A stretch of DNA of 47,524 nt, taken from contig CAZJYT010000001.1 of NCBI GenBank assembly GCA_964550325.1, positions 1 through 47,524 of the forward strand, read 5' to 3'. Below are positions 1-41,111 of this stretch, in pieces. The notes beneath the pieces are model-generated. The model saw only the letters and a list, made by a program, of their open reading frames with translations. It searched no databases and had not been told where the DNA came from. Position numbers and translations under genes: made by a program. The stretch is from an uncultured Candidatus Saccharibacteria bacterium. GTDB taxonomy: Bacteria > Patescibacteriota > Minisyncoccia > Minisyncoccales > CAZJYT01. Numbering within the stretch: position 1 is the stretch's first letter; every line of letters begins with the position of its first letter.

Positions 1-3
1 ATT

Positions 4-25
4 TGCTATTTATAAGTAAAGAGAT
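4..25 (+). promoter_or_regulatory. conserved leader / extended -10-like element (TGcTATTTA) upstream of the first + gene, cut by the window edge
   Basis: 19 nt TATTTATAAGTAAAGAGAT (7-25) are identical to 6564-6582 upstream of the Cas4-like gene. Both copies are preceded by TGn and followed by ATG within 0-2 nt. Confidence 0.3.
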
Positions 26-301
26 ATGAAAATAAAGAACAAAATAAGCAAAAGAAAAAAGCAACAGTTAAGAAAGTTATTTGTCTCTTTTTTTGTAAGA
101 GAATTAGGAATTCCTCAATCCCTACTCGCTTTTATTCTAAATGTTTCAAGACAAAGAATCTTCCAGATGGTTAGAAATCCAAGATTAGACTTTAAAACAG
201 CAGAAAGATACAAACTTTACGAACTAAAAGACCTGATAGATTTAGAAAGATTTAAGAAATTGATAAAAGAAATAGATCTTTTAAGAAAATCAGATTTATA
301 A
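26..301 (+). CDS. small basic protein with HTH-like segment (putative transcriptional regulator)
   Basis: 91-aa ORF. LGIPQSLLAFILNVSRQRIFQMV resembles a helix-turn-helix. First gene of the + block; its stop overlaps the next start (TAATG). Confidence 0.4.
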   Translation: MKIKNKISKRKKQQLRKLFVSFFVRELGIPQSLLAFILNVSRQRIFQMVRNPRLDFKTAERYKLYELKDLIDLERFKKLIKEIDLLRKSDL

Positions 302-726
302 TGGCTTCTGATAAATGTCCAAGATTTAATAATTGTAATGCTCCTTTATGTCCTTTAGATAAAGAGAGTTTAGAATTTGGAATTTGGTATCCTGATGAAG
401 AAATTTGTCAGAATAGGAACTTCTCAAAACTTCGTTGGATTAGAAATCAGAAGAAGATACTTAAAGTAAATGCTCCAAAAGACAGATACTTTAGTTTCAC
501 AATGCTTAAAAGAAAGTGTGTTATCGGAAAGAAGATGCAAGGATTAGACCCAGATGAGCCAGAAGGACCTCAACTAGAAAGATGGTTAAAACAGCATCCA
601 GAAAGAAAGCCCTTATCTGAAAAACAGAAACAAGTCATAGCAAAACTGAAGACCTCTTTAAAAACCCCAATCCGCCGAGGTTTTAAAGGTCAAAAACCCC
701 AATCTAACGATGTTTTACAGACCTAA
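301..726 (+). CDS. Cys-rich putative metal-binding protein
   Basis: 141-aa ORF with N-terminal CPRFNNCNAPLCPLD...EEIC cysteine cluster. The last ~60 nt of the ORF are formed by repeat copy A (665-749), so the C-terminus is uncertain. Confidence 0.5.
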   Translation: MASDKCPRFNNCNAPLCPLDKESLEFGIWYPDEEICQNRNFSKLRWIRNQKKILKVNAPKDRYFSFTMLKRKCVIGKKMQGLDPDEPEGPQLERWLKQHPERKPLSEKQKQVIAKLKTSLKTPIRRGFKGQKPQSNDVLQT

Positions 727-749
727 TATCCTTTAGAGGTATAAAACAT
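665..749 (+). repeat. 85-nt repeat, copy A (two CCAATC boxes 32 nt apart, then AGACCTAATATCCTTTAGAGGTATAAAACAT)
   Basis: Ungapped alignment to 7989-8073 gives 73/85 identical positions. Ends 1 nt before ATG 751 and supplies its GAGGT ribosome-binding site. Confidence 0.85.
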
Positions 750-750
750 T

Positions 751-945
751 ATGAAGGAAGAAAAAGTTATCAAAAATCCATTTAAAGACCTTAAAAACGA
801 ACTTCTTTCTCAATTTACCTTTTCAGACTTGAAAAATCCAGTAAAGAGGATAAAAATAAAAGAAACCTTACAGACTTTAGATGATTGTTCTACCAGATAT
901 CTTGATCTTTTAAGAAGATTAAAAAACCTAACAAGGTATTTCTAA
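751..945 (+). CDS. hypothetical protein (64 aa)
   Basis: ORF with GAGGT 9 nt upstream of ATG. No recognisable motif. Confidence 0.5.
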   Translation: MKEEKVIKNPFKDLKNELLSQFTFSDLKNPVKRIKIKETLQTLDDCSTRYLDLLRRLKNLTRYF

Positions 946-3625: not shown

Positions 3626-4623
3626 AACTTCTTTATATTCCTTGTCACTCTATTGCAGAGTATGATGAGATAAAACTCTTTTCTGAAATAGGAATAGAGG
3701 TCTTTAGCACTGGTTCTTATTTTGTTCCTTCCAAACCTGTAGACCCTAAAAGACCTCCTTTGAATATTAAGAGACATCCAGAATACGAACCTTTGGTAGG
3801 AAGCAATCCAGAAGTAATTCCCAGAGAGTTGGTAAAAAACTTTGATATTGTTTTCTTTCACTGGCTTCCTTTAAGAATTCTTAACAACTGGGAAAATCTA
3901 AAAGACAAGAAGGTAATTTTAAGAACCAATGGCCAATCAGTTTCTCAAAATGAACTTCAGATAAGAGAACTAAAAAAGAGAGGAGTTATTATAGTTCGTT
4001 ATTCTCCTAAAGAAAGAAACATCCCTTTCTATGCTGGAGAAGATGCTTTGATTAGGTTTTACAAAGATCCAGAAGAGTTTAAAGACTGGAATGGAAAAAA
4101 GAAAAGGATTATCAGTTTCTGTCAATCATTGCTAAAAAGAGGCCCTTACTGTAATGCTCCTGTTTTTCTTAAAGCAACAGAAGGATTTGAGAGAAAACTT
4201 TTTGGTCCTGATAACGAAGAACTAAAAGAAATCTGGGGAGGTTGTTTGGATTACGAGCAACTTAAAAAAGAACTTCAGGATAATAGGGTTTATTTCTATA
4301 CAGGAACAATGCCTGCTTCTTATACCTTAAACTTTATTGAAGCCTTTATGACAGGAATTCCTATTGTTTCTATAGGAAAGAAATTAGGAAATCCTTTTTG
4401 GGATTCTAATCTTGACCTCTTCGAGATTGGAGATCTAATAGAAAACGGAAAGGAAGGTTTTGTTTCAGATGATTTGACCAATCTTAAAGGATATATCAAA
4501 ATCTTACTTGATGATTATTCTTTGGCAAAAGAAATAAGTAAAAATGCAAGAGAAAAAGCAATAGAACTATTTGGTAAGGAAAAAATTAAAAGACAATGGA
4601 TAAACTTCTTCAAAAATCTATAA
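3622..4623 (+). CDS. glycosyltransferase (GT-B, GT1/GT4-like)
   Basis: C-terminal half YTLNFIEAFMTGIPIVSIGKKLGN...ENGKEGFVSDD...AREKAIELFGKEKIKRQW matches the GT4 donor-binding region. Confidence 0.7.
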   Translation: MKLLYIPCHSIAEYDEIKLFSEIGIEVFSTGSYFVPSKPVDPKRPPLNIKRHPEYEPLVGSNPEVIPRELVKNFDIVFFHWLPLRILNNWENLKDKKVILRTNGQSVSQNELQIRELKKRGVIIVRYSPKERNIPFYAGEDALIRFYKDPEEFKDWNGKKKRIISFCQSLLKRGPYCNAPVFLKATEGFERKLFGPDNEELKEIWGGCLDYEQLKKELQDNRVYFYTGTMPASYTLNFIEAFMTGIPIVSIGKKLGNPFWDSNLDLFEIGDLIENGKEGFVSDDLTNLKGYIKILLDDYSLAKEISKNAREKAIELFGKEKIKRQWINFFKNL

Positions 4624-7204: not shown

Positions 7205-7521
7205 AAGAACTCTTGGAACTTTTATTAAGATTAGAGGAAAAAGGCTTAAGTTCTCCTATTCTTAACTCTATCAAGGAGATTTTAGAACTGGAAGAAAAGA
7301 GAAAAGAAATTCATCTTAAAAGGCTTTTGATTTCTCTTTTTCTTATTTTTAATCCTAAATCGACTATCAAGGAAGCAAAAGAGAAAATAGAAAAGGTCTT
7401 TGATGAAATTTCTCTTAAAAAAGAAAACTATCTTGATTTATCTCTTTCAAAAGAAGAAATAAAAAAGATAATCAAAGAGTTGAAAAATGGAAAACCTGAA
7501 CAAACTAGCAAAGGCTTATAA
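7201..7521 (+). CDS. hypothetical protein (106 aa)
   Basis: ORF with ATGA overlap to the Cas4-like gene. No motif. Confidence 0.5.
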   Translation: MKELLELLLRLEEKGLSSPILNSIKEILELEEKRKEIHLKRLLISLFLIFNPKSTIKEAKEKIEKVFDEISLKKENYLDLSLSKEEIKKIIKELKNGKPEQTSKGL

Positions 7522-7954
7522 AGATAATCTGAAGAAGATGATAAAAGAACTCTATAGGAAGAAGATGGAATTAAAAGGAGAAAGAGGTAAGTTTACTGCC
7601 TTTAGAAAGGAATTTGCTAAAAAGTTTAATCTTTGTGATGAATGGTTAAGAAAGCATTTAGAGGATTATGAGTTTTTTGTTATCAAATTGAAGGTTCCAG
7701 AAGAAACCTTTTTCTCTATTGGACGCTTGAGATGGCATCTTATTAAACCCTATGCTACAGAGAAAAATCTTTCAAAACTTATTAAACTTATCACCACTCT
7801 TCCTTATCGCAAGGTAAGAAAACAGCTCCGAACCCTAAAACAAGAAGGTTGTGCTCATACTTTTGAACTTGTTAAGTTCTGCCCCAGATGTAAAAAGATT
7901 TTTAGGCTTTCTCCAGAAGAAGTAGAAAGAATTAGAAAAGGTTTTCCTCTTTAA
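7487..7954 (+). CDS. putative DNA-binding protein with C-terminal zinc ribbon (paralog of 1582-2073)
   Basis: 155 aa. LPYRKVRKQLRTLKQEGCAHTFELVKFCPRCKKIF aligns with the C-terminus of ORF 1582-2073. Last gene of the + block. Confidence 0.5.
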   Translation: MENLNKLAKAYKDNLKKMIKELYRKKMELKGERGKFTAFRKEFAKKFNLCDEWLRKHLEDYEFFVIKLKVPEETFFSIGRLRWHLIKPYATEKNLSKLIKLITTLPYRKVRKQLRTLKQEGCAHTFELVKFCPRCKKIFRLSPEEVERIRKGFPL

Positions 7955-7973
7955 TGTGCAACATATTGCACAT
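7954..7973 (+). promoter_or_regulatory. conserved stem-loop element, copy 2 (ATGTGCAA-CATA-TTGCACAT)
   Basis: Perfect 8-bp stem and 4-nt loop. Its first base is the last base of stop codon TAA 7952-7954. Sits at the convergent junction of the + and - blocks. Confidence 0.65.
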
Positions 7974-7988
7974 AGATACCTTTTTCAA

Positions 7989-8073
7989 CCCCAATCCGCC
8001 GAGGTTTTAGGCCTTCAAAACCCCAATCTAATGGGCTTTTTTAGACCTAATATCCTTTAGAGGTATAAAACAT
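7989..8073 (+). repeat. 85-nt repeat, copy B (orphan: no + gene follows; the ATG of copy A is ATC here)
   Basis: 73/85 identity to 665-749. Lies between convergent gene ends and points into the 3' end of minus-strand gene 8078-9961. Confidence 0.85.
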
Positions 8074-8077
8074 CATC

Positions 8078-9961
8078 TCAATCCATTTCCTGTTCAATTT
8101 CCATCTTCTTTGCCTCTTTTAGAGAAACAGGTTCCAGTTTCTTCTTTCCCAAAGCAATCTTCTTCATTAAACTTAAAGGAAAGCACTTTTTAGCCTTCCA
8201 GAAGTAAAAGAACAAGCCATAAACAGGTTTTCCTGCTTCTCTTTGCTTTTTAGTCATTTCATTCTTATTTAGTTTCCTTTGAACCAATCTATAGTAGTAT
8301 CTTCCATTTAGATGTTTTCCCAAAAAGGTAATGTCATAGAAATCCAGTTCCCTCCTATGAATAACACAAGGAGCAAAGTAATCTCCAGGTAAGGCAAGCA
8401 TAACTGCCATCTCATTTTTGGTTGGATTTCCTCTTTCTCCAGGTTTAGCCCAAAGTTTCTTCACCTTCATCCAATACAAAACATCTCTCCTTTCCCAAAT
8501 CCTTTCCCCTTGTGTTGCTTCAAAGTGTTTTAAAAGGAATTCTTTTAATTTTTGCCCTTTAGGATGAAGAACTTGATAACCTTTGACTGATTGTCCTGAA
8601 ATACAGTAAATTCCATTTCTTCTAACAATTATTAAACCAGTTGGGACTGTGACAGAATAGAGTTTTCCTTTATAGAGTTCAATACTCCAATGTTTAGGTC
8701 TGACTTTTGGATACAGCCCTTTCTTTTGGGCAAAAAATAAACGGTATATTAAAGAGCCTTTTCCTGAAATTCCAGAAGAGATAGTTACCGAGTAACCAGC
8801 CAAAATTCCAATTATTTGGAGTTGGTCTCTCAAAACTTTTGAAGAGGTGTAAATTGTAAAGCCGCTACTCTTTTTATTTGGAGTCCCATCTCCCATTCTG
8901 TATCCTTTTAAGAAACTTTGAAGACTCTTTCTATCGGCTTTGAATACATAATCAGGAATAACTTTCTTTCCTTTTCCTTTTAGTTTATATTTCTTAAATT
9001 CTAAAGCCAATTTTTTGTCTCTGATTACAAAAACTCTTACCTTGTCTTTGTTTTCATACTCTTTTAGATTTGAAAAATTTTGTTTCTTTAATAACTTTCT
9101 TGCATAATCAATCTTAGTTTTTTGAGATATCTGTAATCTGTAACCATCTCTAGAATTCGCGTACACACCTCCTTCCGCAAACCAAAAACCGAGAAATTCA
9201 AACCAATCTGGATTTTCTTTTTTCCCTTTCCATTTAATCTCTCTCTTAAAATGTCCAACTTTTCCAAAGGCTTCAGCCGCTGAAAGAATTTTAAACCTTT
9301 TTTGATTTGAGGGATTCCAACGCCTTTTTCCGTCTTTAGAATAGACCCAATATCTTGGAGAAAAATACAAACGATGTGAAGGATTTACTAACAAATCTAC
9401 GTGTCTGTGCTTTATCCTAATAAGTTCTCCATTGTTTTCATAAACAATAATATCAAGAGGTTTTACATAGGAAAGAAATCCATCCTTAGAAACCTGAGCA
9501 ACTTTATCTTCTTTTGAAAGATCTTTAAAATATTTCCAACCTTTTTCAGTCAGTATTTCAGTTTTTTCATCAAAACAACCCTGGACCTTTCTATCTGGTC
9601 TCCCTTTCCATGGTGCAGTAAAGAAGGTCAACCCAAACCATGTAGTTGCTCCTTTAGGAAGAATTCTTAAATCATAGTGATACTTTCCCTCCATTTCCTT
9701 TGCTGGATCTTTACCTTCTTTTATGATTTTACACATTTCCTCATAAACCTCATCTACATTCTTAAATGTTCCTACTGGAAACCATCCATGTAGTTGTAGA
9801 GTGTATCTTCCAGGTATAAAGTCTATAAATTCAGCATGGAAAGGATCTTTTAGAGCAATCTTTAAAGCCTCCTGCAAAAGAGCAGACTTGGAAGGAATAT
9901 CAGTTCCTTCATAGACCTTGTATCCCTTCTTTGTAGGAACAAGTTTAAGTCTTTTTGCCAT
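8078..9961 (-). CDS. intein-containing protein; spliced extein ~298 aa of uncertain function (HYDLR motif faintly LigD-phosphoesterase-like)
   Basis: 627-aa ORF. Extein residues 1-128 and 458-627 flank a 329-aa Hint+LAGLIDADG insert. Extein has YTLQLHGW...KYHYDLRILPKG. Confidence 0.6.
   Translation of the reverse strand: MAKRLKLVPTKKGYKVYEGTDIPSKSALLQEALKIALKDPFHAEFIDFIPGRYTLQLHGWFPVGTFKNVDEVYEEMCKIIKEGKDPAKEMEGKYHYDLRILPKGATTWFGLTFFTAPWKGRPDRKVQGCFDEKTEILTEKGWKYFKDLSKEDKVAQVSKDGFLSYVKPLDIIVYENNGELIRIKHRHVDLLVNPSHRLYFSPRYWVYSKDGKRRWNPSNQKRFKILSAAEAFGKVGHFKREIKWKGKKENPDWFEFLGFWFAEGGVYANSRDGYRLQISQKTKIDYARKLLKKQNFSNLKEYENKDKVRVFVIRDKKLALEFKKYKLKGKGKKVIPDYVFKADRKSLQSFLKGYRMGDGTPNKKSSGFTIYTSSKVLRDQLQIIGILAGYSVTISSGISGKGSLIYRLFFAQKKGLYPKVRPKHWSIELYKGKLYSVTVPTGLIIVRRNGIYCISGQSVKGYQVLHPKGQKLKEFLLKHFEATQGERIWERRDVLYWMKVKKLWAKPGERGNPTKNEMAVMLALPGDYFAPCVIHRRELDFYDITFLGKHLNGRYYYRLVQRKLNKNEMTKKQREAGKPVYGLFFYFWKAKKCFPLSLMKKIALGKKKLEPVSLKEAKKMEIEQEMD
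8591..9577 (-). mobile_element. intein with LAGLIDADG homing-endonuclease domain (aa 129-457)
   Basis: Block A CFDEKTEILT (Cys1 codon verified at 9575-9577), block B LLVNPSHRLY, LAGLIDADG motifs FLGFWFAEGG and FLKGYRMGDG, block F/G LIIVRRNGIYCISGQ followed by Ser+1 (codons verified at 8588-8593). Confidence 0.8.
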
Positions 9962-31138: not shown

Positions 31139-31633
31139 TTAGTTAAAATCCTTTCTTCTTTTAAGAGAAGATAATAACGAATCTAATTGTTTGTCAAATG
31201 GAAAATAGAGAGTATAGCCTTCCAGTTTTCCCTTTCCAAGTAAATCTCTCTTTATGAAGTAAAATCTTGGTTTGTAAGGATTTTTCTTTTTTAAAATGAC
31301 ACTATTAGAAAACATCTGAGGATAAATTTCTATTACCTTTCCTTCATCCAGATACTTCCTTAAGCCAGAAAAGAGAGTAAGAATAACTGTTTTCCTTTTT
31401 GGAAGTTGAGGATTACGACATACAAAAAGGTATTCTTTGTCTGTTTGTATTCTACTTACCTTATCTGCTTTAGGACAGATTTTAGGAAAAGGATAAGAGG
31501 TTACAATATGAACCTCAAAACCTTGTTTCAGATACTTATCAAGTTCTATCAGATAGAGGTCTGAAGTAAAAACATTAAACTCCCAAACTATGCTTAATTT
31601 AGATTTTAGTCTTTCCCAGGTATTATTTATCAT
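31139..31633 (-). CDS. hypothetical virion-block protein (164 aa)
   Basis: ORF immediately upstream of the giant ORF (TAA-t-ATG) and preceded by repeat copy C. Confidence 0.6.
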   Translation of the reverse strand: MINNTWERLKSKLSIVWEFNVFTSDLYLIELDKYLKQGFEVHIVTSYPFPKICPKADKVSRIQTDKEYLFVCRNPQLPKRKTVILTLFSGLRKYLDEGKVIEIYPQMFSNSVILKKKNPYKPRFYFIKRDLLGKGKLEGYTLYFPFDKQLDSLLSSLKRRKDFN

Positions 31634-31645
31634 CTTTCAGAAGAT

Positions 31646-31706
31646 AGGTCTCTAAATTACCATTAGATTGGCCTTTTTGACCCAAAAAACATCGTTAGAT
31701 TGGGTT
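31646..31706 (-). repeat. CCAATC-box repeat, copy C (minus orientation)
   Basis: Read on the minus strand: CCCAATCTAACGATGTTTT (19 nt identical to 698-716), and 32 nt later GCCAATCTAATGG...TTTAGAGACCT. Ends 12 nt before ATG 31633. Confidence 0.7.
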
Positions 31707-31707
31707 T

Positions 31708-32115
31708 CTAGGAATAATACATGAAATCCTCAAATCGTTTCAACAATCCTTTATTCTTTCCATTCTTCTTCTTCTGTTTTATTTCTTCAACCAAAGGAAA
31801 AAGTGAAAGTTTCTTTAGGATATACCTTGTTCCTTTAGGAAAATTGGTTTTTACTCTTTTTAGTTTCAGGAATTCATTTAGATTGGAAAAGGAAGCAAGG
31901 CATAAAGGATGTTTGGAAGAAAGAAAAAAGGGTTTCTTATAGAAGAAGATAAGAAAAGGTTTTTTAGAGAAGTTGAGATACTTGAAGAATAGTTTCCTTT
32001 CAGAAGCATAATTAAAGACAAAAAGAATTTCAGGTCTTTTCTCACTTACTCTGAATCCAAAAACCTCTAAATGTTGTTCAAAGTTTCTATCTCTGGGAAA
32101 GGTTAAAAAAAGCAT
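31708..32115 (-). CDS. hypothetical protein (135 aa)
   Basis: ORF between stem-loop copy 3 and repeat copy C. No motif. Confidence 0.5.
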   Translation of the reverse strand: MLFLTFPRDRNFEQHLEVFGFRVSEKRPEILFVFNYASERKLFFKYLNFSKKPFLIFFYKKPFFLSSKHPLCLASFSNLNEFLKLKRVKTNFPKGTRYILKKLSLFPLVEEIKQKKKNGKNKGLLKRFEDFMYYS

Positions 32116-32120
32116 AAGGA

Positions 32121-32140
32121 ATGTGCAATATGTTGCACAT
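32121..32140 (-). promoter_or_regulatory. conserved stem-loop element, copy 3 (sense orientation on the minus strand)
   Basis: + strand reads ATGTGCAATATGTTGCACAT, so the minus-strand transcript reads ATGTGCAACATATTGCACAT. Abuts stop codon TAA of ORF 32140-32565, and a T-run follows 8 nt later. Confidence 0.65.
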
Positions 32141-32652: not shown

Positions 32653-33720
32653 CTAGCTGGCCTCAGCAATGTTGTAGAGCATTGCAATCTTTCTGCAGGC
32701 ATTTGTTGTCAAGGCTCCTCTGGTTGTTGCTACCAACCGGCTTACATCTGAACCTGTAATGTTGTGCAGGTTAGTGAAGCCAGTTGATTTCCAAGCCTGG
32801 AGTACTCTCCATCTGAGTCTTCTTTCATCAATCATAAAGGCCTTACCTGAGGGGCAATAAGGATCAGCAACCATTGGAATACCCTTAAAGTAGAAGGCCT
32901 CAAATCCTCCATCTAAAACTCTTCTCTTTCCTCCTTCTGTAGCAGCAAGCAAGAGTCTTACAATAGTTCCTCCATCAGCAGCAACCTTAACAGTGCTAAT
33001 CTGGTCTTCAAACTTCTCAAGAACTTCAGGAGTTGTCACAATAATGGTTGGAGGCTGAGCATCTACATACTTCTTGATTCTGTAGTAGCAGTAGTTCAAG
33101 TTTGGATAATCCAAGGCTGCTGAACTTACATCCTTTGTCCATCCTCTCCACCAAGAATAAGTGGATTTATCAATTCCTCCTACAGTTCCAGTTGAGGCTA
33201 CCATTGCCTGTAAACCAACCATATATTTAGTTCCATCAGCATGGTTGGCATACAGGTCATTGGCCATAGCCTCCTGGATGTTTCTTACAGCCTCTCTGGT
33301 CTTTGCTGCCAAAACATCAAATCTTGCTGCCTTTGACATCAAAACAAGGTCTCGGTTGTCAATTGCCAAGGCAAGCCTGTAGTTCTTAAAGACATACTGA
33401 GCACCCTTTATCTTATCAGTTGAAGTAGATAAAGGAGCAAACTCAGCAGTCTCCCCAGTATTGTAAGCCCCACAGGTTGCCTGTCCTGGAGTTGCAATCT
33501 GCTCTACTAAAAGAGGCTCTACTACAGAAACTCCCTCAACGCTGTCTACGATTCTTGCTCCTGGATATTCCCCTTCTCTTGCTACTCTGAAAATTCTGTA
33601 GAGCAAAGGGGAAGTTCTATAAATCTGGTTAGTCAATCTTGGCTCAATTACTCTCTTAAAAGCAGTTCCCATCTCAGACAAAACCTTATCAAATTCTGAA
33701 CTGTAGGGATATGTTTCCAT
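32653..33720 (-). CDS. major capsid protein (HK97-fold candidate)
   Basis: 355 aa. A/G/T/V-rich, unlike the K/E-rich neighbours. Sits directly downstream of an acidic scaffold-like gene and is followed by a strong terminator. Overall resemblance to phage MCP families; no search run. Confidence 0.7.
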   Translation of the reverse strand: METYPYSSEFDKVLSEMGTAFKRVIEPRLTNQIYRTSPLLYRIFRVAREGEYPGARIVDSVEGVSVVEPLLVEQIATPGQATCGAYNTGETAEFAPLSTSTDKIKGAQYVFKNYRLALAIDNRDLVLMSKAARFDVLAAKTREAVRNIQEAMANDLYANHADGTKYMVGLQAMVASTGTVGGIDKSTYSWWRGWTKDVSSAALDYPNLNYCYYRIKKYVDAQPPTIIVTTPEVLEKFEDQISTVKVAADGGTIVRLLLAATEGGKRRVLDGGFEAFYFKGIPMVADPYCPSGKAFMIDERRLRWRVLQAWKSTGFTNLHNITGSDVSRLVATTRGALTTNACRKIAMLYNIAEAS

Positions 33721-36870: not shown

Positions 36871-36900
36871 ATGCTAAAGTAGAGAGAAAAATCTTGTCAA
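36871..36900 (-). promoter_or_regulatory. putative sigma70-type promoter for the minus-strand virion block
   Basis: Minus strand reads TTGACA (36900-36895), 18-nt spacer, TAGCAT (36876-36871). About 25 nt of leader with AAAGG precede ATG 36846. Confidence 0.4.
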
Positions 36901-39413: not shown

Positions 39414-41111
39414 ATGATTCCAACAGATAAGGGAATTTTAAGGTTTATCTATAACTTTGGAATAAAAACAAATAAGGGTCTCCCTTACACCTTTAAGACC
39501 CATCCCTTTCTTTATCAGCCCTTAATTGATGATTCAGAAAAAATTGTCTTTAAGAAATCCACCCAGATGGGAATCTCTCTGATGGTTTTAAACAAGATCT
39601 ACTATTGGGCTACTATTAAGCAACCAAAATCTACAACTCTTTATGTTCTTCCTAGTCAGCCTCTTGCTCAAGATTTCGTTCGAACCAAGGTTGATCCTGT
39701 AATTCTGAATTCAGAACTAAAGAAACTCATTTTAGAAAACAAAAGCGTTTCTAATAGAAAAGACTACTCTCTCCATCTCTTAAGGCTTAAGGATTCTTTT
39801 ATTATCTTTCAAGGAAGTTTCTCTGCTGGACAGGCTCAGAGTTTTGATATTGAAACTCTTTGTTTGGATGAGTTGGATTTTCAAAACCTGAGATTCAAAG
39901 AAATGTTTGAAGAAAGGCTATCAGGATTAAGTCAGATAGGAGCAAAAAAAAGAAGGATTTATATTTCTGTTCCTGTTCTTCCTAAAGGAGGAATTTCAGA
40001 GGAATTTGAGGATTCTAATCAACAGGAATGGTTGGTAAAGTGTCCTTTTTGTAATAAAGAACAAAGTTTAGAATTTCCTCAAAACATTGATTTTGACAAA
40101 AAGAAACTTATATGTTCCTCCTGTCATAATCCCTTAAAAAAAGAGACAATTCTTAAAGGAAGATGGGTTGCTCGTTTTCCTGACAGGCCTGTTTCTGGTT
40201 ATCACTTCACCCATCTAATGTGTGTTTGGATTCCTGTTTCAAAGATTATTGAAAGATTTCAAAAAAATCCTGAACATACTAGTTCTTTTGAATTGGGAAC
40301 TCTCTATCAGAAAAAGACAGAGACCATAAATCCTGAAAGGTTCATTTTCGGGAATTATCTTGAGATTTCTGATCCTTTGAAACTAAGAGAAACTCCAAGG
40401 GATTATCCTTTAGTTTGTGGAATTGATCAAGGAGATCTTTTTTATCTTGGTTATGGGATTCTATTTCCTGATAAAATAGAAATAAAAGGTTTTCTCAAGT
40501 TCTCAAATCCTTTTGAATTAGAAAACTTTTTAAAGATAGCAAAGTTCAATTACATTCTTATGGATATGCTCCCTGCTAAGCATGTAGCAAAGGCTTTAAA
40601 GTCTTCTTTAAGTTCAGAAGACACCTCATTCTGGGTTGCTAATATTACTCAGTCTTCTATTCCAAGATTAGAATACTTTGATGTCTTTTCAAAAGAAGAA
40701 AGACTAAGATTAGAGAGAACAGAAGCAGTAGATAAGATGTTAACCAAACTAAAACAAGGAAAGATTATCTTTCCTCAAGATATGAGATTAGAAAAAGAGG
40801 TCTTTCAGCATTTAACTTCCCTTTATCCTGTCTATAGAGAGTCTTATGGAGGAGTAAGAAAATACTGGGCAAGGAAAGGAAAGAATGACTTTGCCTTTGC
40901 TTTGACCTTTCTTTCTACCCTCCAAGACTTTCTTCTTCCGTATCTTCCCAAAGAGGGAAAAGAAGAAGAAAAGAAAAAGAAAGGCTTAAGTTCAGAGTTT
41001 GAAAGGGTTTTGAACTCTAAAGACTTTATGACAAGGGAAATAGAATTAGAAAACCTAAAAAAGATCTCTAAAGACCTCTATGGAGACACTTTCTTTATTG
41101 GTTCTATTTGA
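39414..41111 (+). CDS. terL: terminase large subunit (GpA-like)
   Basis: 565 aa. Walker A-like KKSTQMGIS, Walker B LCLDELD, zinc ribbon CPFCNKEQ...CSSCHNPL as in lambda GpA-type terminases, and a C-terminal nuclease-like half (GIDQGD...). Confidence 0.8.
   Translation: MIPTDKGILRFIYNFGIKTNKGLPYTFKTHPFLYQPLIDDSEKIVFKKSTQMGISLMVLNKIYYWATIKQPKSTTLYVLPSQPLAQDFVRTKVDPVILNSELKKLILENKSVSNRKDYSLHLLRLKDSFIIFQGSFSAGQAQSFDIETLCLDELDFQNLRFKEMFEERLSGLSQIGAKKRRIYISVPVLPKGGISEEFEDSNQQEWLVKCPFCNKEQSLEFPQNIDFDKKKLICSSCHNPLKKETILKGRWVARFPDRPVSGYHFTHLMCVWIPVSKIIERFQKNPEHTSSFELGTLYQKKTETINPERFIFGNYLEISDPLKLRETPRDYPLVCGIDQGDLFYLGYGILFPDKIEIKGFLKFSNPFELENFLKIAKFNYILMDMLPAKHVAKALKSSLSSEDTSFWVANITQSSIPRLEYFDVFSKEERLRLERTEAVDKMLTKLKQGKIIFPQDMRLEKEVFQHLTSLYPVYRESYGGVRKYWARKGKNDFAFALTFLSTLQDFLLPYLPKEGKEEEKKKKGLSSEFERVLNSKDFMTREIELENLKKISKDLYGDTFFIGSI

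What the first reader, a model, noticed from the sequence alone, without database searches (positions are those of the whole stretch)
7989..8073. 85-nt repeat family with paired CCAATC boxes spaced 32 nt apart at three block boundaries
Copy A (665-749) and copy B (7989-8073) align without gaps at 73/85 positions. A shorter minus-oriented relative lies at 31646-31706.

Each locus carries two boxes exactly 32 nt apart (about three helical turns):
- CCCCAATCCGCCGAGGTTTT and CCCCAATCTAA(C/T)G..TTTT in copies A and B.
- CCCAATCTAACGATGTTTT and GCCAATCTAATGG in copy C.

The boxes are GC-rich islands in very AT-rich DNA. Copies A and C end just upstream of a start codon (751 and 31633). Copy B is orphaned: the equivalent ATG is ATC, and it points antisense into the 3' end of the intein gene.

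The likeliest reading is a phage-specific promoter/operator module bound by a dimer or tetramer. Copy B would then be either a decayed duplicate or an antisense promoter.
Basis: seen in the sequence. Interest (0 to 1): 0.6.

Follow-up and report, generated by a model that had tools for sequence, protein, structure and literature searches.

The report
Phased protein-docking boxes at phage gene boundaries
An uncultured phage of a tiny (Patescibacteria-type) bacterium marks several gene-block boundaries with a ~100-bp DNA module of rigid geometry; it most likely docks a phage regulatory protein that controls transcription there, but no function has been shown.

Summary
Copies A and B match at 73/85 positions. 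The box CCAATCYRMYG occurs 6 times in the window, against 0.1 expected.

The unit is larger than described:
- two asymmetric boxes exactly 32 nt apart, each between an A-run and a T-run;
- a -10-like hexamer 24-30 nt after box 2;
- a conserved 17-nt core (AGGTATAAAAYATCATC) 37-38 nt after box 2.

Contig C51, which joins the window's left end, and a related metagenome locus carry "full" sites: two arms face each other across one core. A, B and C are half sites.

Copy B is not decayed. It scores best against the family profile, and its core is the closest of the window's three copies to consensus.

The boxes are absent from the host genome, from 185,579 species genomes and from IMG/VR. They occur only in this phage lineage.

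No RNA fold, hairpin covariation, recombinase, phage sigma factor or phage RNA polymerase was found. A separate iteron and AT-rich region is the better origin candidate.

Best reading (about 0.4): a regulator-dependent promoter/operator module. The main rival is a polar roadblock.

Earlier notes of this scan on this window flagged the same A/B repeats. Only analogous cassettes, in T1-like phages, were noted on other DNA.

The parts
655..753 (+). Module A, a half site with the arm left of the core. Box 1 is 667-677, box 2 is 699-709, the -10-like TAATAT is 724-729, and the core AGGTATAAAACATTATG is 737-753. The last three bases of the core are the ATG of ORF 751-945.
   Evidence: 80 bits against the arm profile. 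Boxes 1 and 2 lie inside the 3' end of ORF 301-726. A 1-nt indel in box 1 in three strain contigs shortens that ORF to 128 aa.
7979..8077 (+). Module B, a half site of the same type and orientation as A. Box 1 is 7991-8001, box 2 is 8023-8033, TAATAT is 8048-8053, and the core AGGTATAAAACATCATC is 8061-8077. It fills the gap between two convergent gene blocks and ends 1 nt before the stop codon (8078-8080) of the minus-strand gene.
   Evidence: core has 1 mismatch; 92 bits, the best of all arms. It is conserved in L016, L017 and L047.
31618..31715 (-). Module C, a half site with the arm on the other side of the core. Box 1 is 31703-31693, box 2 is 31671-31661, TATCTT is 31646-31641. The core, read on the minus strand as GATGATAAATAATACCT, is 31634-31618. 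Its ATG (31633-31631) starts ORF 31139-31633.
   Evidence: 75 bits. It is identical in strain contigs L015, L030 and L044.
7954..7973 (.). A 20-bp palindrome (ATGTGCAACATATTGCACAT) 17 nt upstream of box 1 of B. This is a second, separate repeated site of the same phage. It also lies 36 nt from the outer box of the full site in L031 and L065.
31714..31743 (-). A sigma-70-like promoter, TTGAAA-18-TATTAT. Its predicted start (about 31707) falls about 4 nt upstream of box 1 of module C.
   Evidence: (10/12 match), with coordinates read. It is one of 14 such matches in the window. The chance that one lies within 40 nt upstream of a module is about 2% (my estimate).

Best explanation
The module is a cis-regulatory docking array of the phage. 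A phage-encoded DNA-binding protein binds the asymmetric boxes one unit per box. The exact 32-bp phasing, about three helical turns, puts neighbouring units on the same face of the DNA.

From there the protein controls host RNA polymerase at the fixed-distance -10-like hexamer and core region. My preferred version is a promoter without a -35 element. Box 2 would be centred near -33 and box 1 near -65. The -10-like hexamer sits 24-30 nt after box 2. Transcription would start about 37 nt after box 2, at about 736 for A, 8060 for B and 31634 for C.

That start gives a 15-nt leader beginning at the Shine-Dalgarno sequence for ORF 751. It gives an essentially leaderless mRNA for ORF 31633.

Full sites (arm, core, inverted arm) would be four-box complexes that clamp or loop the core. 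Arms with no downstream gene (B, E, F') would act as operators, roadblocks or antisense starts.

Shown: the anatomy, the rigid geometry, restriction to the phage, and the absence of RNA structure. Inferred: protein binding, the transcription start and the direction of regulation.
For: 1. Fifteen box units from arms A-F', plus H (a strain variant of F'), align without gaps. CAATC and the G five nt later are invariant. The flanking A-run and T-run are at least 90% conserved. The positions between them vary.
2. Box spacing is 32 nt in all nine arms, and the core sits at offset +37/38 in all nine. Spacer sequences differ.
3. The element is restricted to the phage. The genome holds 10 boxes, all on phage contigs C1 and C51. 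Profile searches find nothing else in 953 kb.
4. Modules sit at gene-block boundaries. A and C end at start codons. D precedes the holin and lysin cassette. F lies between a terminator and an early TTGACA-18-TAAAAT promoter.
5. No phage RNA polymerase or sigma factor was detected. The phage should therefore depend on host polymerase plus its own factors. Classic sigma-70 promoters exist elsewhere in the phage, so the modules form a distinct class.
6. Strain polymorphisms in the boxes of module A fall on positions that also vary between paralogous modules: CCAATC/TCAATC and TAACG/TAATG.
7. Candidate binders exist. ORF 26-301 is a small helix-turn-helix protein with a weak excisionase-family hit. 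ORFs 1582-2073 and 7487-7954 are zinc-ribbon paralogues, and the latter has a weak regulator hit.
Against: - No transcript evidence exists.
- The -10-like hexamers match only 3-5/6, which is common in 34% GC DNA.
- Three of seven distinct arms (B, E, F') face no gene.
- The core is conserved even where no gene follows, and it sits on either side of an arm.
- C is preceded by its own sigma-70-like promoter. That would place its boxes at about +4 to +46, which is operator-like rather than activator-like.
- No binding protein has been identified.
- All copies come from one phage lineage, so conservation by common descent cannot be fully separated from constraint.
Confidence: 0.4

Rival explanations
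1. The module is a polar roadblock or insulator, like a stoperator, and nothing initiates there. The bound protein stops RNA polymerase that arrives from the box-1 side. Half sites would be one-way stops at the ends of transcription units. Full sites would be two-way insulators.
For: - All three half sites lie right after, or over, the stop codon of a co-oriented upstream gene.
- B occupies a convergent junction that has no intrinsic terminator.
- The boxes of C would lie at +4 to +46 of a sigma-70-like promoter.
- The boxes are asymmetric, as are the monomer-bound, orientation-dependent stoperators of Cluster A mycobacteriophages (PMC9283540).
Against: - Arms E and F' face no incoming transcription.
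- F follows a good intrinsic terminator, which would make a roadblock redundant.
- This reading does not explain the conserved core or its use as a start-codon region in A and C.
- No repressor or lysogeny module was found.
Confidence: 0.2
2. The module is a site-specific recombination site. The full site would resemble attP, with arm-type sites on both sides of a crossover core. Half sites would resemble attL/attR or integron attI (DR2-DR1-core). Such sites would mediate cassette exchange or integration.
For: - The arm-core-arm layout of D/E and F/F' and the arm-core half sites fit this pattern.
- A and B bracket a 7.3-kb cassette as direct repeats.
- The A-module variants look like gene conversion between copies.
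Against: - No tyrosine or serine recombinase was found on the phage contigs, and none scores over the cut-off anywhere in the genome.
- The core has no inverted core-type half sites, as read from the sequence.
- No bare core was found in the host contigs.
- All 11 contigs carrying the A region have the same junctions.
- The cores of A and C differ at 5 of 17 positions, so they are not a recent target duplication.
Confidence: 0.1
3. The module is a selfish or neutral repeat. The full site would be a small MITE-like element of about 175 bp with inverted ends. Half sites would be truncated relics or local duplications with no function.
For: - Full sites have inverted termini.
- A and B share 34 identical bases across positions that vary in the other arms, which implies duplication or conversion.
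Against: - The arms are only about 65-72% alike, yet they keep spacing and offsets to the base.
- No target-site duplications were seen.
- There are no copies in the host genome.
- No presence/absence polymorphism was seen among strains.
Confidence: 0.08
4. The module is a DNA replication or packaging site: iterons flanking an unwinding element, a fork barrier of the Ter type, or a pac site with repeats on both sides of a cut region.
For: - The repeats are phased and flank an AT-rich core.
- Opposed tandem sites recall the B. subtilis RTP-Ter IRI/IRII sites and P1 pac (my own knowledge).
Against: - There are five loci per genome, each with only two boxes per arm.
- A much better origin candidate lies elsewhere in the same phage. 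It has about five tandem 19-nt iterons, about 300 nt of A/T-tract DNA, and a promoter with the palindrome, at C69:144-596.
- The core is sequence-conserved rather than merely AT-rich.
Confidence: 0.07
5. The module acts as RNA, for example as a processing site, an antitermination (nut/put-like) element, or a protein-binding leader hairpin formed by the A-run and T-run around each box.
For: - Each box could sit in the loop of an AAAACC...GGTTTT hairpin.
- A, C and D are certainly transcribed within long operons.
Against: - There is no Rfam match.
- The consensus fold energy is -0.46 kcal/mol with a positive covariation term.
- The hairpin pairs form no more often than in shuffles: 67.8% against 67.6%, with 267 of 500 shuffles as high, and no excess covariation.
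- The arms occur on both strands.
Confidence: 0.03

Closest known systems
Operators and stoperators of Cluster A mycobacteriophages (L5 gp71 type; PMC9283540)
   Same: - The sites are asymmetric and phage-specific.
- They occur in promoters and in short intergenic spaces across the genome.
- Their orientation follows transcription; here all three half sites do so.
- One protein is presumed to bind one site.
   Different: - Here the sites come as strictly phased pairs (32 bp) tied to a 17-nt core.
- They also occur as opposed pairs.
- There are only 10-14 boxes, against more than 20 sites in L5.
- No repressor or integrase module was detected.
- The sequences are unrelated.
Activator-dependent phage promoters without a -35 element, such as T4 MotA-dependent middle promoters (my own knowledge)
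   Same: A conserved box at a fixed distance upstream of a -10-like hexamer takes the place of the -35 element. It marks a temporal class of phage genes read by host polymerase.
   Different: - There is a second box one unit upstream.
- There is a conserved core downstream.
- Inverted arms exist.
- The -10 element is weak.
- No MotA/AsiA-like genes were found, and no transcription start is mapped.
Gene-boundary promoter cassettes of T1-like phages (the 21-nt intergenic repeat of TLS/T1). Known to me only through earlier notes of this scan, e.g. e1-147309; not tested here.
   Same: - A repeated box lies at an exact distance from a -10 element, with no -35.
- The cassettes sit at gene junctions and include the upstream stop codon region.
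   Different: - Those boxes are palindromic and occur singly, in about 15-20 copies.
- They are attributed to host activators.
- Here the boxes are asymmetric, paired, few in number, and absent from the host genome.
Arm-type site architecture of lambda attP and the DR2-DR1-core layout of integron attI (my own knowledge)
   Same: Direct-repeat accessory sites lie at fixed distances on one or both sides of a short core. Both full and half forms exist.
   Different: - No recombinase was found.
- The core lacks inverted core-type sites.
- No attB-like bare core was found.
- No recombinant junctions were seen.
Bacillus subtilis RTP-Ter (IRI/IRII) and Tus-Ter polar barriers (my own knowledge)
   Same: Tandem binding sites form a polar unit. 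Two such units in opposed orientation form a trap. Single units are scattered elsewhere.
   Different: This is a phage context at gene boundaries. No RTP- or Tus-like gene was recognised. The central core is conserved.

Membership tests
Sigma-70 promoter (-35/-10) | TTGACA-like hexamer 16-18 nt upstream of a TATAAT-like hexamer | tested here: not met
   Neither consensus scan reports a promoter inside a module. The -35 position is taken by box 2 (AATCTA). Only the -10-like hexamers are present: TAATAT, TATCTT, TATAAC, TATATG and TATTCT at offsets 24-30.
Sigma-70 promoter (-35/-10) | Mapped transcription start | not testable with these tools
Activator-dependent promoter without a -35 element (MotA type) | Conserved box at a fixed distance from a -10 element, in the orientation of the downstream gene | tested here: inconclusive
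   The distance is fixed in all nine arms. The hexamers are weak, and three of seven distinct arms have no downstream gene.
Activator-dependent promoter without a -35 element (MotA type) | Phage-encoded activator that binds the box | not testable with these tools
   Only weak candidates exist: ORF 26-301 (HTH; phrog excisionase hit, E=0.003) and ORF 7487-7954 (phrog regulator hit, E=4e-4).
Stoperator/operator system (Cluster A phages) | Asymmetric sites in short intergenic spaces, oriented with transcription | tested here: inconclusive
   The asymmetry and the intergenic position are met. The three half sites are all co-oriented with the upstream gene. Arms E and F' are inverted.
Stoperator/operator system (Cluster A phages) | Immunity repressor and lysogeny module | tested here: not met
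   No integrase or resolvase was found on the phage contigs. No repressor family hit was found among 49 different ORFs scanned. The phage assembly is incomplete.
attP/attI-type recombination site | Cognate tyrosine or serine recombinase | tested here: not met
   The best PF00589 hit is 13 bits, on host contig C25. PF00239 gives no hit.
attP/attI-type recombination site | Core with inverted recombinase-binding half sites, and a matching bare core (attB) in the host | tested here: not met
   The core AGGTATAAAAYATCATC has no dyad, as read from the sequence. Outside the modules, the 953-kb genome holds only 8 AT-rich matches with 2-3 mismatches. The genome is 88% complete.
Iteron-type replication origin | A single locus with several tandem iterons next to an AT-rich unwinding region | tested here: not met
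   There are five loci with two boxes per arm. A canonical iteron and AT-rich region lies at C69:144-540.
MITE | Terminal inverted repeats, target-site duplication, near-identical copies and insertion polymorphism | tested here: not met
   Inverted termini occur only in full sites. No duplication was seen. The arms are 65-72% alike with conserved geometry. No presence/absence variation was seen.
Structured RNA or intrinsic terminator | Conserved base-paired fold with covariation, or a GC-rich stem followed by a T-run | tested here: not met

The most novel reading that the evidence does not exclude
The modules would form a protein-based 'punctuation code' that replaces intrinsic terminators in this phage. 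A phage protein bound head-to-tail on the phased boxes would be a polar barrier to RNA polymerase, and perhaps to replication forks. Half sites would be one-way stops and restarts. Arm-core-arm full sites would be two-way insulators. That would be a Tus/RTP-like or stoperator-like logic found in a lytic-looking phage of Patescibacteria, built from a previously unseen site and an unidentified protein.
Probability: 0.2. Interest if true: 0.65.

Novelty: new variant of a known kind. Interest (0 to 1): 0.4.

Why it matters
To my knowledge, almost nothing is known about how phages of Patescibacteria (CPR bacteria) organise transcription. Here about 70% of the scanned ORFs have no family match.

A rigid, phage-specific module gives a concrete handle. 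It has only about 14 boxes, clear half and full forms, and a companion 20-bp palindrome. It delimits probable transcription units and predicts exact start or stop positions. It can also serve as bait to fish out the regulator in vitro, without culturing phage or host.

If the polar-barrier or four-box clamp reading holds, it would add a new architecture to the known ways phages gate gene blocks. If it is an ordinary promoter class, it is a useful annotation but not a surprise.

Tried and rejected
- **RNA element.** There are no Rfam hits and no consensus fold. The A-run/T-run hairpin around each box pairs no better than shuffled controls.
- **Intrinsic terminator.** None was found in the modules or at the convergent junction.
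- **tRNA or tmRNA.** None was found.
- **Relatives elsewhere.**
  - Strict and loose box-pair patterns and a box-core pattern found nothing related in IMG/VR or in 185,579 species genomes.
  - The 11 genome hits lie in unrelated high-taxon MAGs, mostly Acidobacteriota. I took them as chance matches and did not inspect them.
  - Of the 46 metagenome hits, 10 were real and 36 were chance or coding matches, 18 of them in one conserved protein gene.
- **Distant capsid relatives.** Those at 39-44% identity (L027-L029) and a terminase relative (L014) carry neither boxes nor palindrome.
- **Palindrome as a marker.** In IMG/VR it gave 28 single-site contigs with no modules.
- **Paralogy of flanking genes.** Neither the genes upstream nor those downstream of the modules are paralogous.
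- **A common genome polarity of the cores.** Four cores share one orientation. The fifth (F/F') is opposite if the inferred contig order is right, so this was dropped.
- **Micro-ORF in the reverse core (MIFYTF...).** It is not conserved in A or B. Its apparent conservation is explained by the DNA conservation of the arms.
- **pac site.** There are too many copies.

Full report
**Observation**

The three loci are exactly as described.
- A (665-749) and B (7989-8073) match at 73/85 positions without gaps. The match runs on to 81/98.
- C lies on the minus strand at 31646-31706.
- Each copy has two CCAATC boxes 32 nt apart.
- The pattern CCAATCYRMYG occurs six times in the window, against 0.10 expected. 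None of 100 shuffles reaches six.

**Context**

The window is the whole of contig C1 of a 953-kb, 77-contig bacterial genome bin that is 88% complete. Earlier notes call the host a Patescibacterium. I did not test that.

C1 is phage DNA. It carries the following:
- a large terminase (39414-41111);
- a weak SU10-type capsid hit (32653-33720);
- a 1077-aa protein with a DNA ligase domain;
- a 5120-aa ORF;
- an amidase;
- a Cas4-like nuclease;
- glycosyltransferases.

Contig C51 belongs to the same phage. Metagenome contig L067 is 99.9% identical to C51:3723-5522 (one mismatch in 1,800 nt). It is 100% identical to the left end of a 50,076-bp contig and to window 1-248. C51 position x therefore equals window position x-8576. 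Contig C69 is also phage: it carries tail-fibre hits and the same palindrome.

**Extended anatomy**

Scanning the whole bin found two more arms on C51, arranged head to head. One metagenome scan added a further head-to-head locus:
- arms F and F' in L031;
- strain variants G in L042 and H in L065.

The same scan recovered strain copies of B, C and D/E.

All nine arms align without a single gap. Each arm consists of:
- box 1;
- box 2, exactly 32 nt later;
- a -10-like hexamer at offsets 24-30 from box 2 (TAATAT, TATCTT, TATTCT, TATAAC or TATATG);
- a 17-nt core, AGGTATAAAAYATCATC, beginning at offset 37 or 38.

Each box is an asymmetric CAATC-N4-G preceded by an A-run and followed by a T-run. 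The bases between these elements vary.

The core can lie in either orientation relative to the arm. This is explained by the full sites. D/E and F/F' are arm-core-inverted arm units of about 175 bp that share one central core. A and B are left halves. C is a right half.

With up to 3 mismatches the core occurs 12 times in 953 kb. Four of these are in modules.

**Distribution**

- Profile searches find no other arm or unit in the bin.
- Nothing related exists in IMG/VR or in 185,579 species genomes.
- Capsid relatives at 39-44% identity lack the element.

The family is so far private to one phage lineage. That lineage has been seen in several JGI, ENA and Logan assemblies.

**Copy B**

B is not a decaying orphan.
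- It has the best profile score: 92 bits, against 80, 77, 76.5 and 75 for the other arms.
- Its core has 1 mismatch to consensus, against 3 for A.
- It is retained in L016, L017 and L047.

B, together with the 20-bp palindrome at 7954-7973, fills the 123-nt gap between two convergent gene blocks. No intrinsic terminator is predicted in that gap.

**Strain variation**

In 10 strain contigs that carry the A region, module A shows six variable positions in about 100 nt.
- One is a 1-nt insertion in box 1. It shortens ORF 301-726 to 128 aa, so the 3' end of that ORF is not constrained as coding.
- The box variants (CCAATC/TCAATC and TAACG/TAATG) are states seen in other modules.
- The window's copy of A carries B-type bases at two sites where most strains differ. 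That suggests gene conversion between A and B.
- Module C is invariant in three strain contigs.

**What it is not**

- Not an RNA element. There are no Rfam matches. The consensus fold energy is -0.46 kcal/mol. The hairpin that could enclose each box pairs at 67.8%, against 67.6% in shuffles, with no excess covariation.
- Probably not a recombination site.
  - No tyrosine or serine recombinase is detectable on the phage contigs, and none scores over the cut-off in the bin.
  - The core has no dyad.
  - No bare core was found in the host contigs.
  - All contigs show the same junctions.
- Probably not the replication origin. C69:144-235 carries about five tandem 19-nt iterons. About 300 nt of A/T-tract DNA follows, and then a promoter overlapping the palindrome. 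That is a far more canonical origin.
- Probably not a MITE. The geometry is kept to the base while the sequence has diverged to 65-72% identity. There is no insertion polymorphism.

**Transcription context**

No T7-type RNA polymerase or sigma region 4 is found on the phage contigs. The T7-polymerase search is weak evidence, because the control genomes also gave no hit.

Classic sigma-70 promoters do exist in the phage:
- TTGACA-18-TAAAAT just beyond the palindrome next to F/F' (L031:1178);
- TTGAAA-18-TAAAAT overlapping the palindrome on C69;
- TTGACA-18-TAGCAT at the divergent junction at 36900.

One further match, TTGAAA-18-TATTAT at 31743-31714 on the minus strand, would start transcription at about 31707. 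That is about 4 nt upstream of box 1 of module C.

**Mechanism**

The rigid phasing of asymmetric sites, the phage restriction, the boundary positions and the lack of RNA structure point to a docking array for a phage DNA-binding protein that acts on transcription.

My preferred version (confidence 0.4) is a regulator-dependent promoter without a -35 element. Box 2 would sit near -33 and box 1 near -65. Transcription would start about 37 nt after box 2. This fits A, with a 15-nt leader that begins at GAGG, and C, which would be leaderless.

The main rival (0.2) is a polar roadblock of the stoperator kind (PMC9283540). It accounts better for three things:
- B;
- the position of every half site right after a co-oriented gene;
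- the promoter upstream of C.

Neither model explains the inverted arms E and F', unless the full sites are four-box clamps or two-way insulators.

Recombination (0.1), a selfish repeat (0.08), replication or packaging (0.07) and RNA (0.03) follow.

**Limits**

- All copies come from one lineage.
- The phage genome is not closed. The placement of C69 and L031 relative to the window is an inference from a 127-nt overlap and a split tail-fibre gene.

**Verdict**

The feature is real and more elaborate than first described. It is a new variant of a familiar kind, a repeated phage cis-regulatory site. It is of moderate interest.

Noticed in passing
L077 (= genome contig C69) 144-596: About five tandem 19-nt iterons (TATTCGGGGATAGTTCTGT, 144-235) are followed by about 300 nt of extreme A/T-tract DNA. 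A TTGAAA-18-TAAAAT promoter then overlaps the 20-bp palindrome. This is a likely replication origin and control region of the same phage.
   Followed up: partly
L026 (= contig C51) 4173-4352, equal to window -4403..-4224: A full site: arms D (+) and E (-) face each other across one core (4255-4271). It lies between a 168-aa ORF and a holin-like, transglycosylase and YopX cassette. C51 joins the window's left end through L067.
   Followed up: yes
L031 1178-1320 compared with L065 192-1235: A near-consensus promoter (TTGACA-18-TAAAAT) lies beside the palindrome. It drives a roughly 75-nt strongly folded RNA (z = -3.97) with a terminator-like tail. In the related contig L065 that segment is replaced by a 275-aa PD-(D/E)XK nuclease gene. 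This looks like a mobile-nuclease swap.
   Followed up: partly
window 31708-32115 (-): This 135-aa ORF has a near-zero coding score, against 0.08-0.30 for other small phage genes. It has no ribosome-binding site and is rich in Phe, Leu and Lys. The roughly 480-nt stretch between the palindrome at 32121 and module C may be non-coding regulatory DNA. It is almost invariant among strains.
   Followed up: partly
window 665-726 (3' end of ORF 301-726): A 1-nt indel polymorphism inside box 1 (CCGCCGAGG versus CCGGCGGAGG) changes the ORF length from 141 to 128 aa in three independent contigs. The last 20 codons appear to be read-through into the module.
   Followed up: yes
window 724-750 compared with 8048-8074: The window's module A carries B-type bases at two sites where most strains have other bases (AATAGCC and AACCTT). 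This suggests gene conversion between the two direct repeats that bracket the 7.3-kb cassette.
   Followed up: partly
L026 (C51) 625-1524: A free-standing LigD-type 3'-phosphoesterase gene (PF13298, E = 5.6e-25) lies in the same phage that carries the portal-ligase fusion. The 20-bp palindrome directly follows its stop codon.
   Followed up: no
whole genome bin: No Phage_integrase-family (XerC/D-type) hit scores over the cut-off anywhere in the 953-kb bin, which is 88% complete.
   Followed up: no
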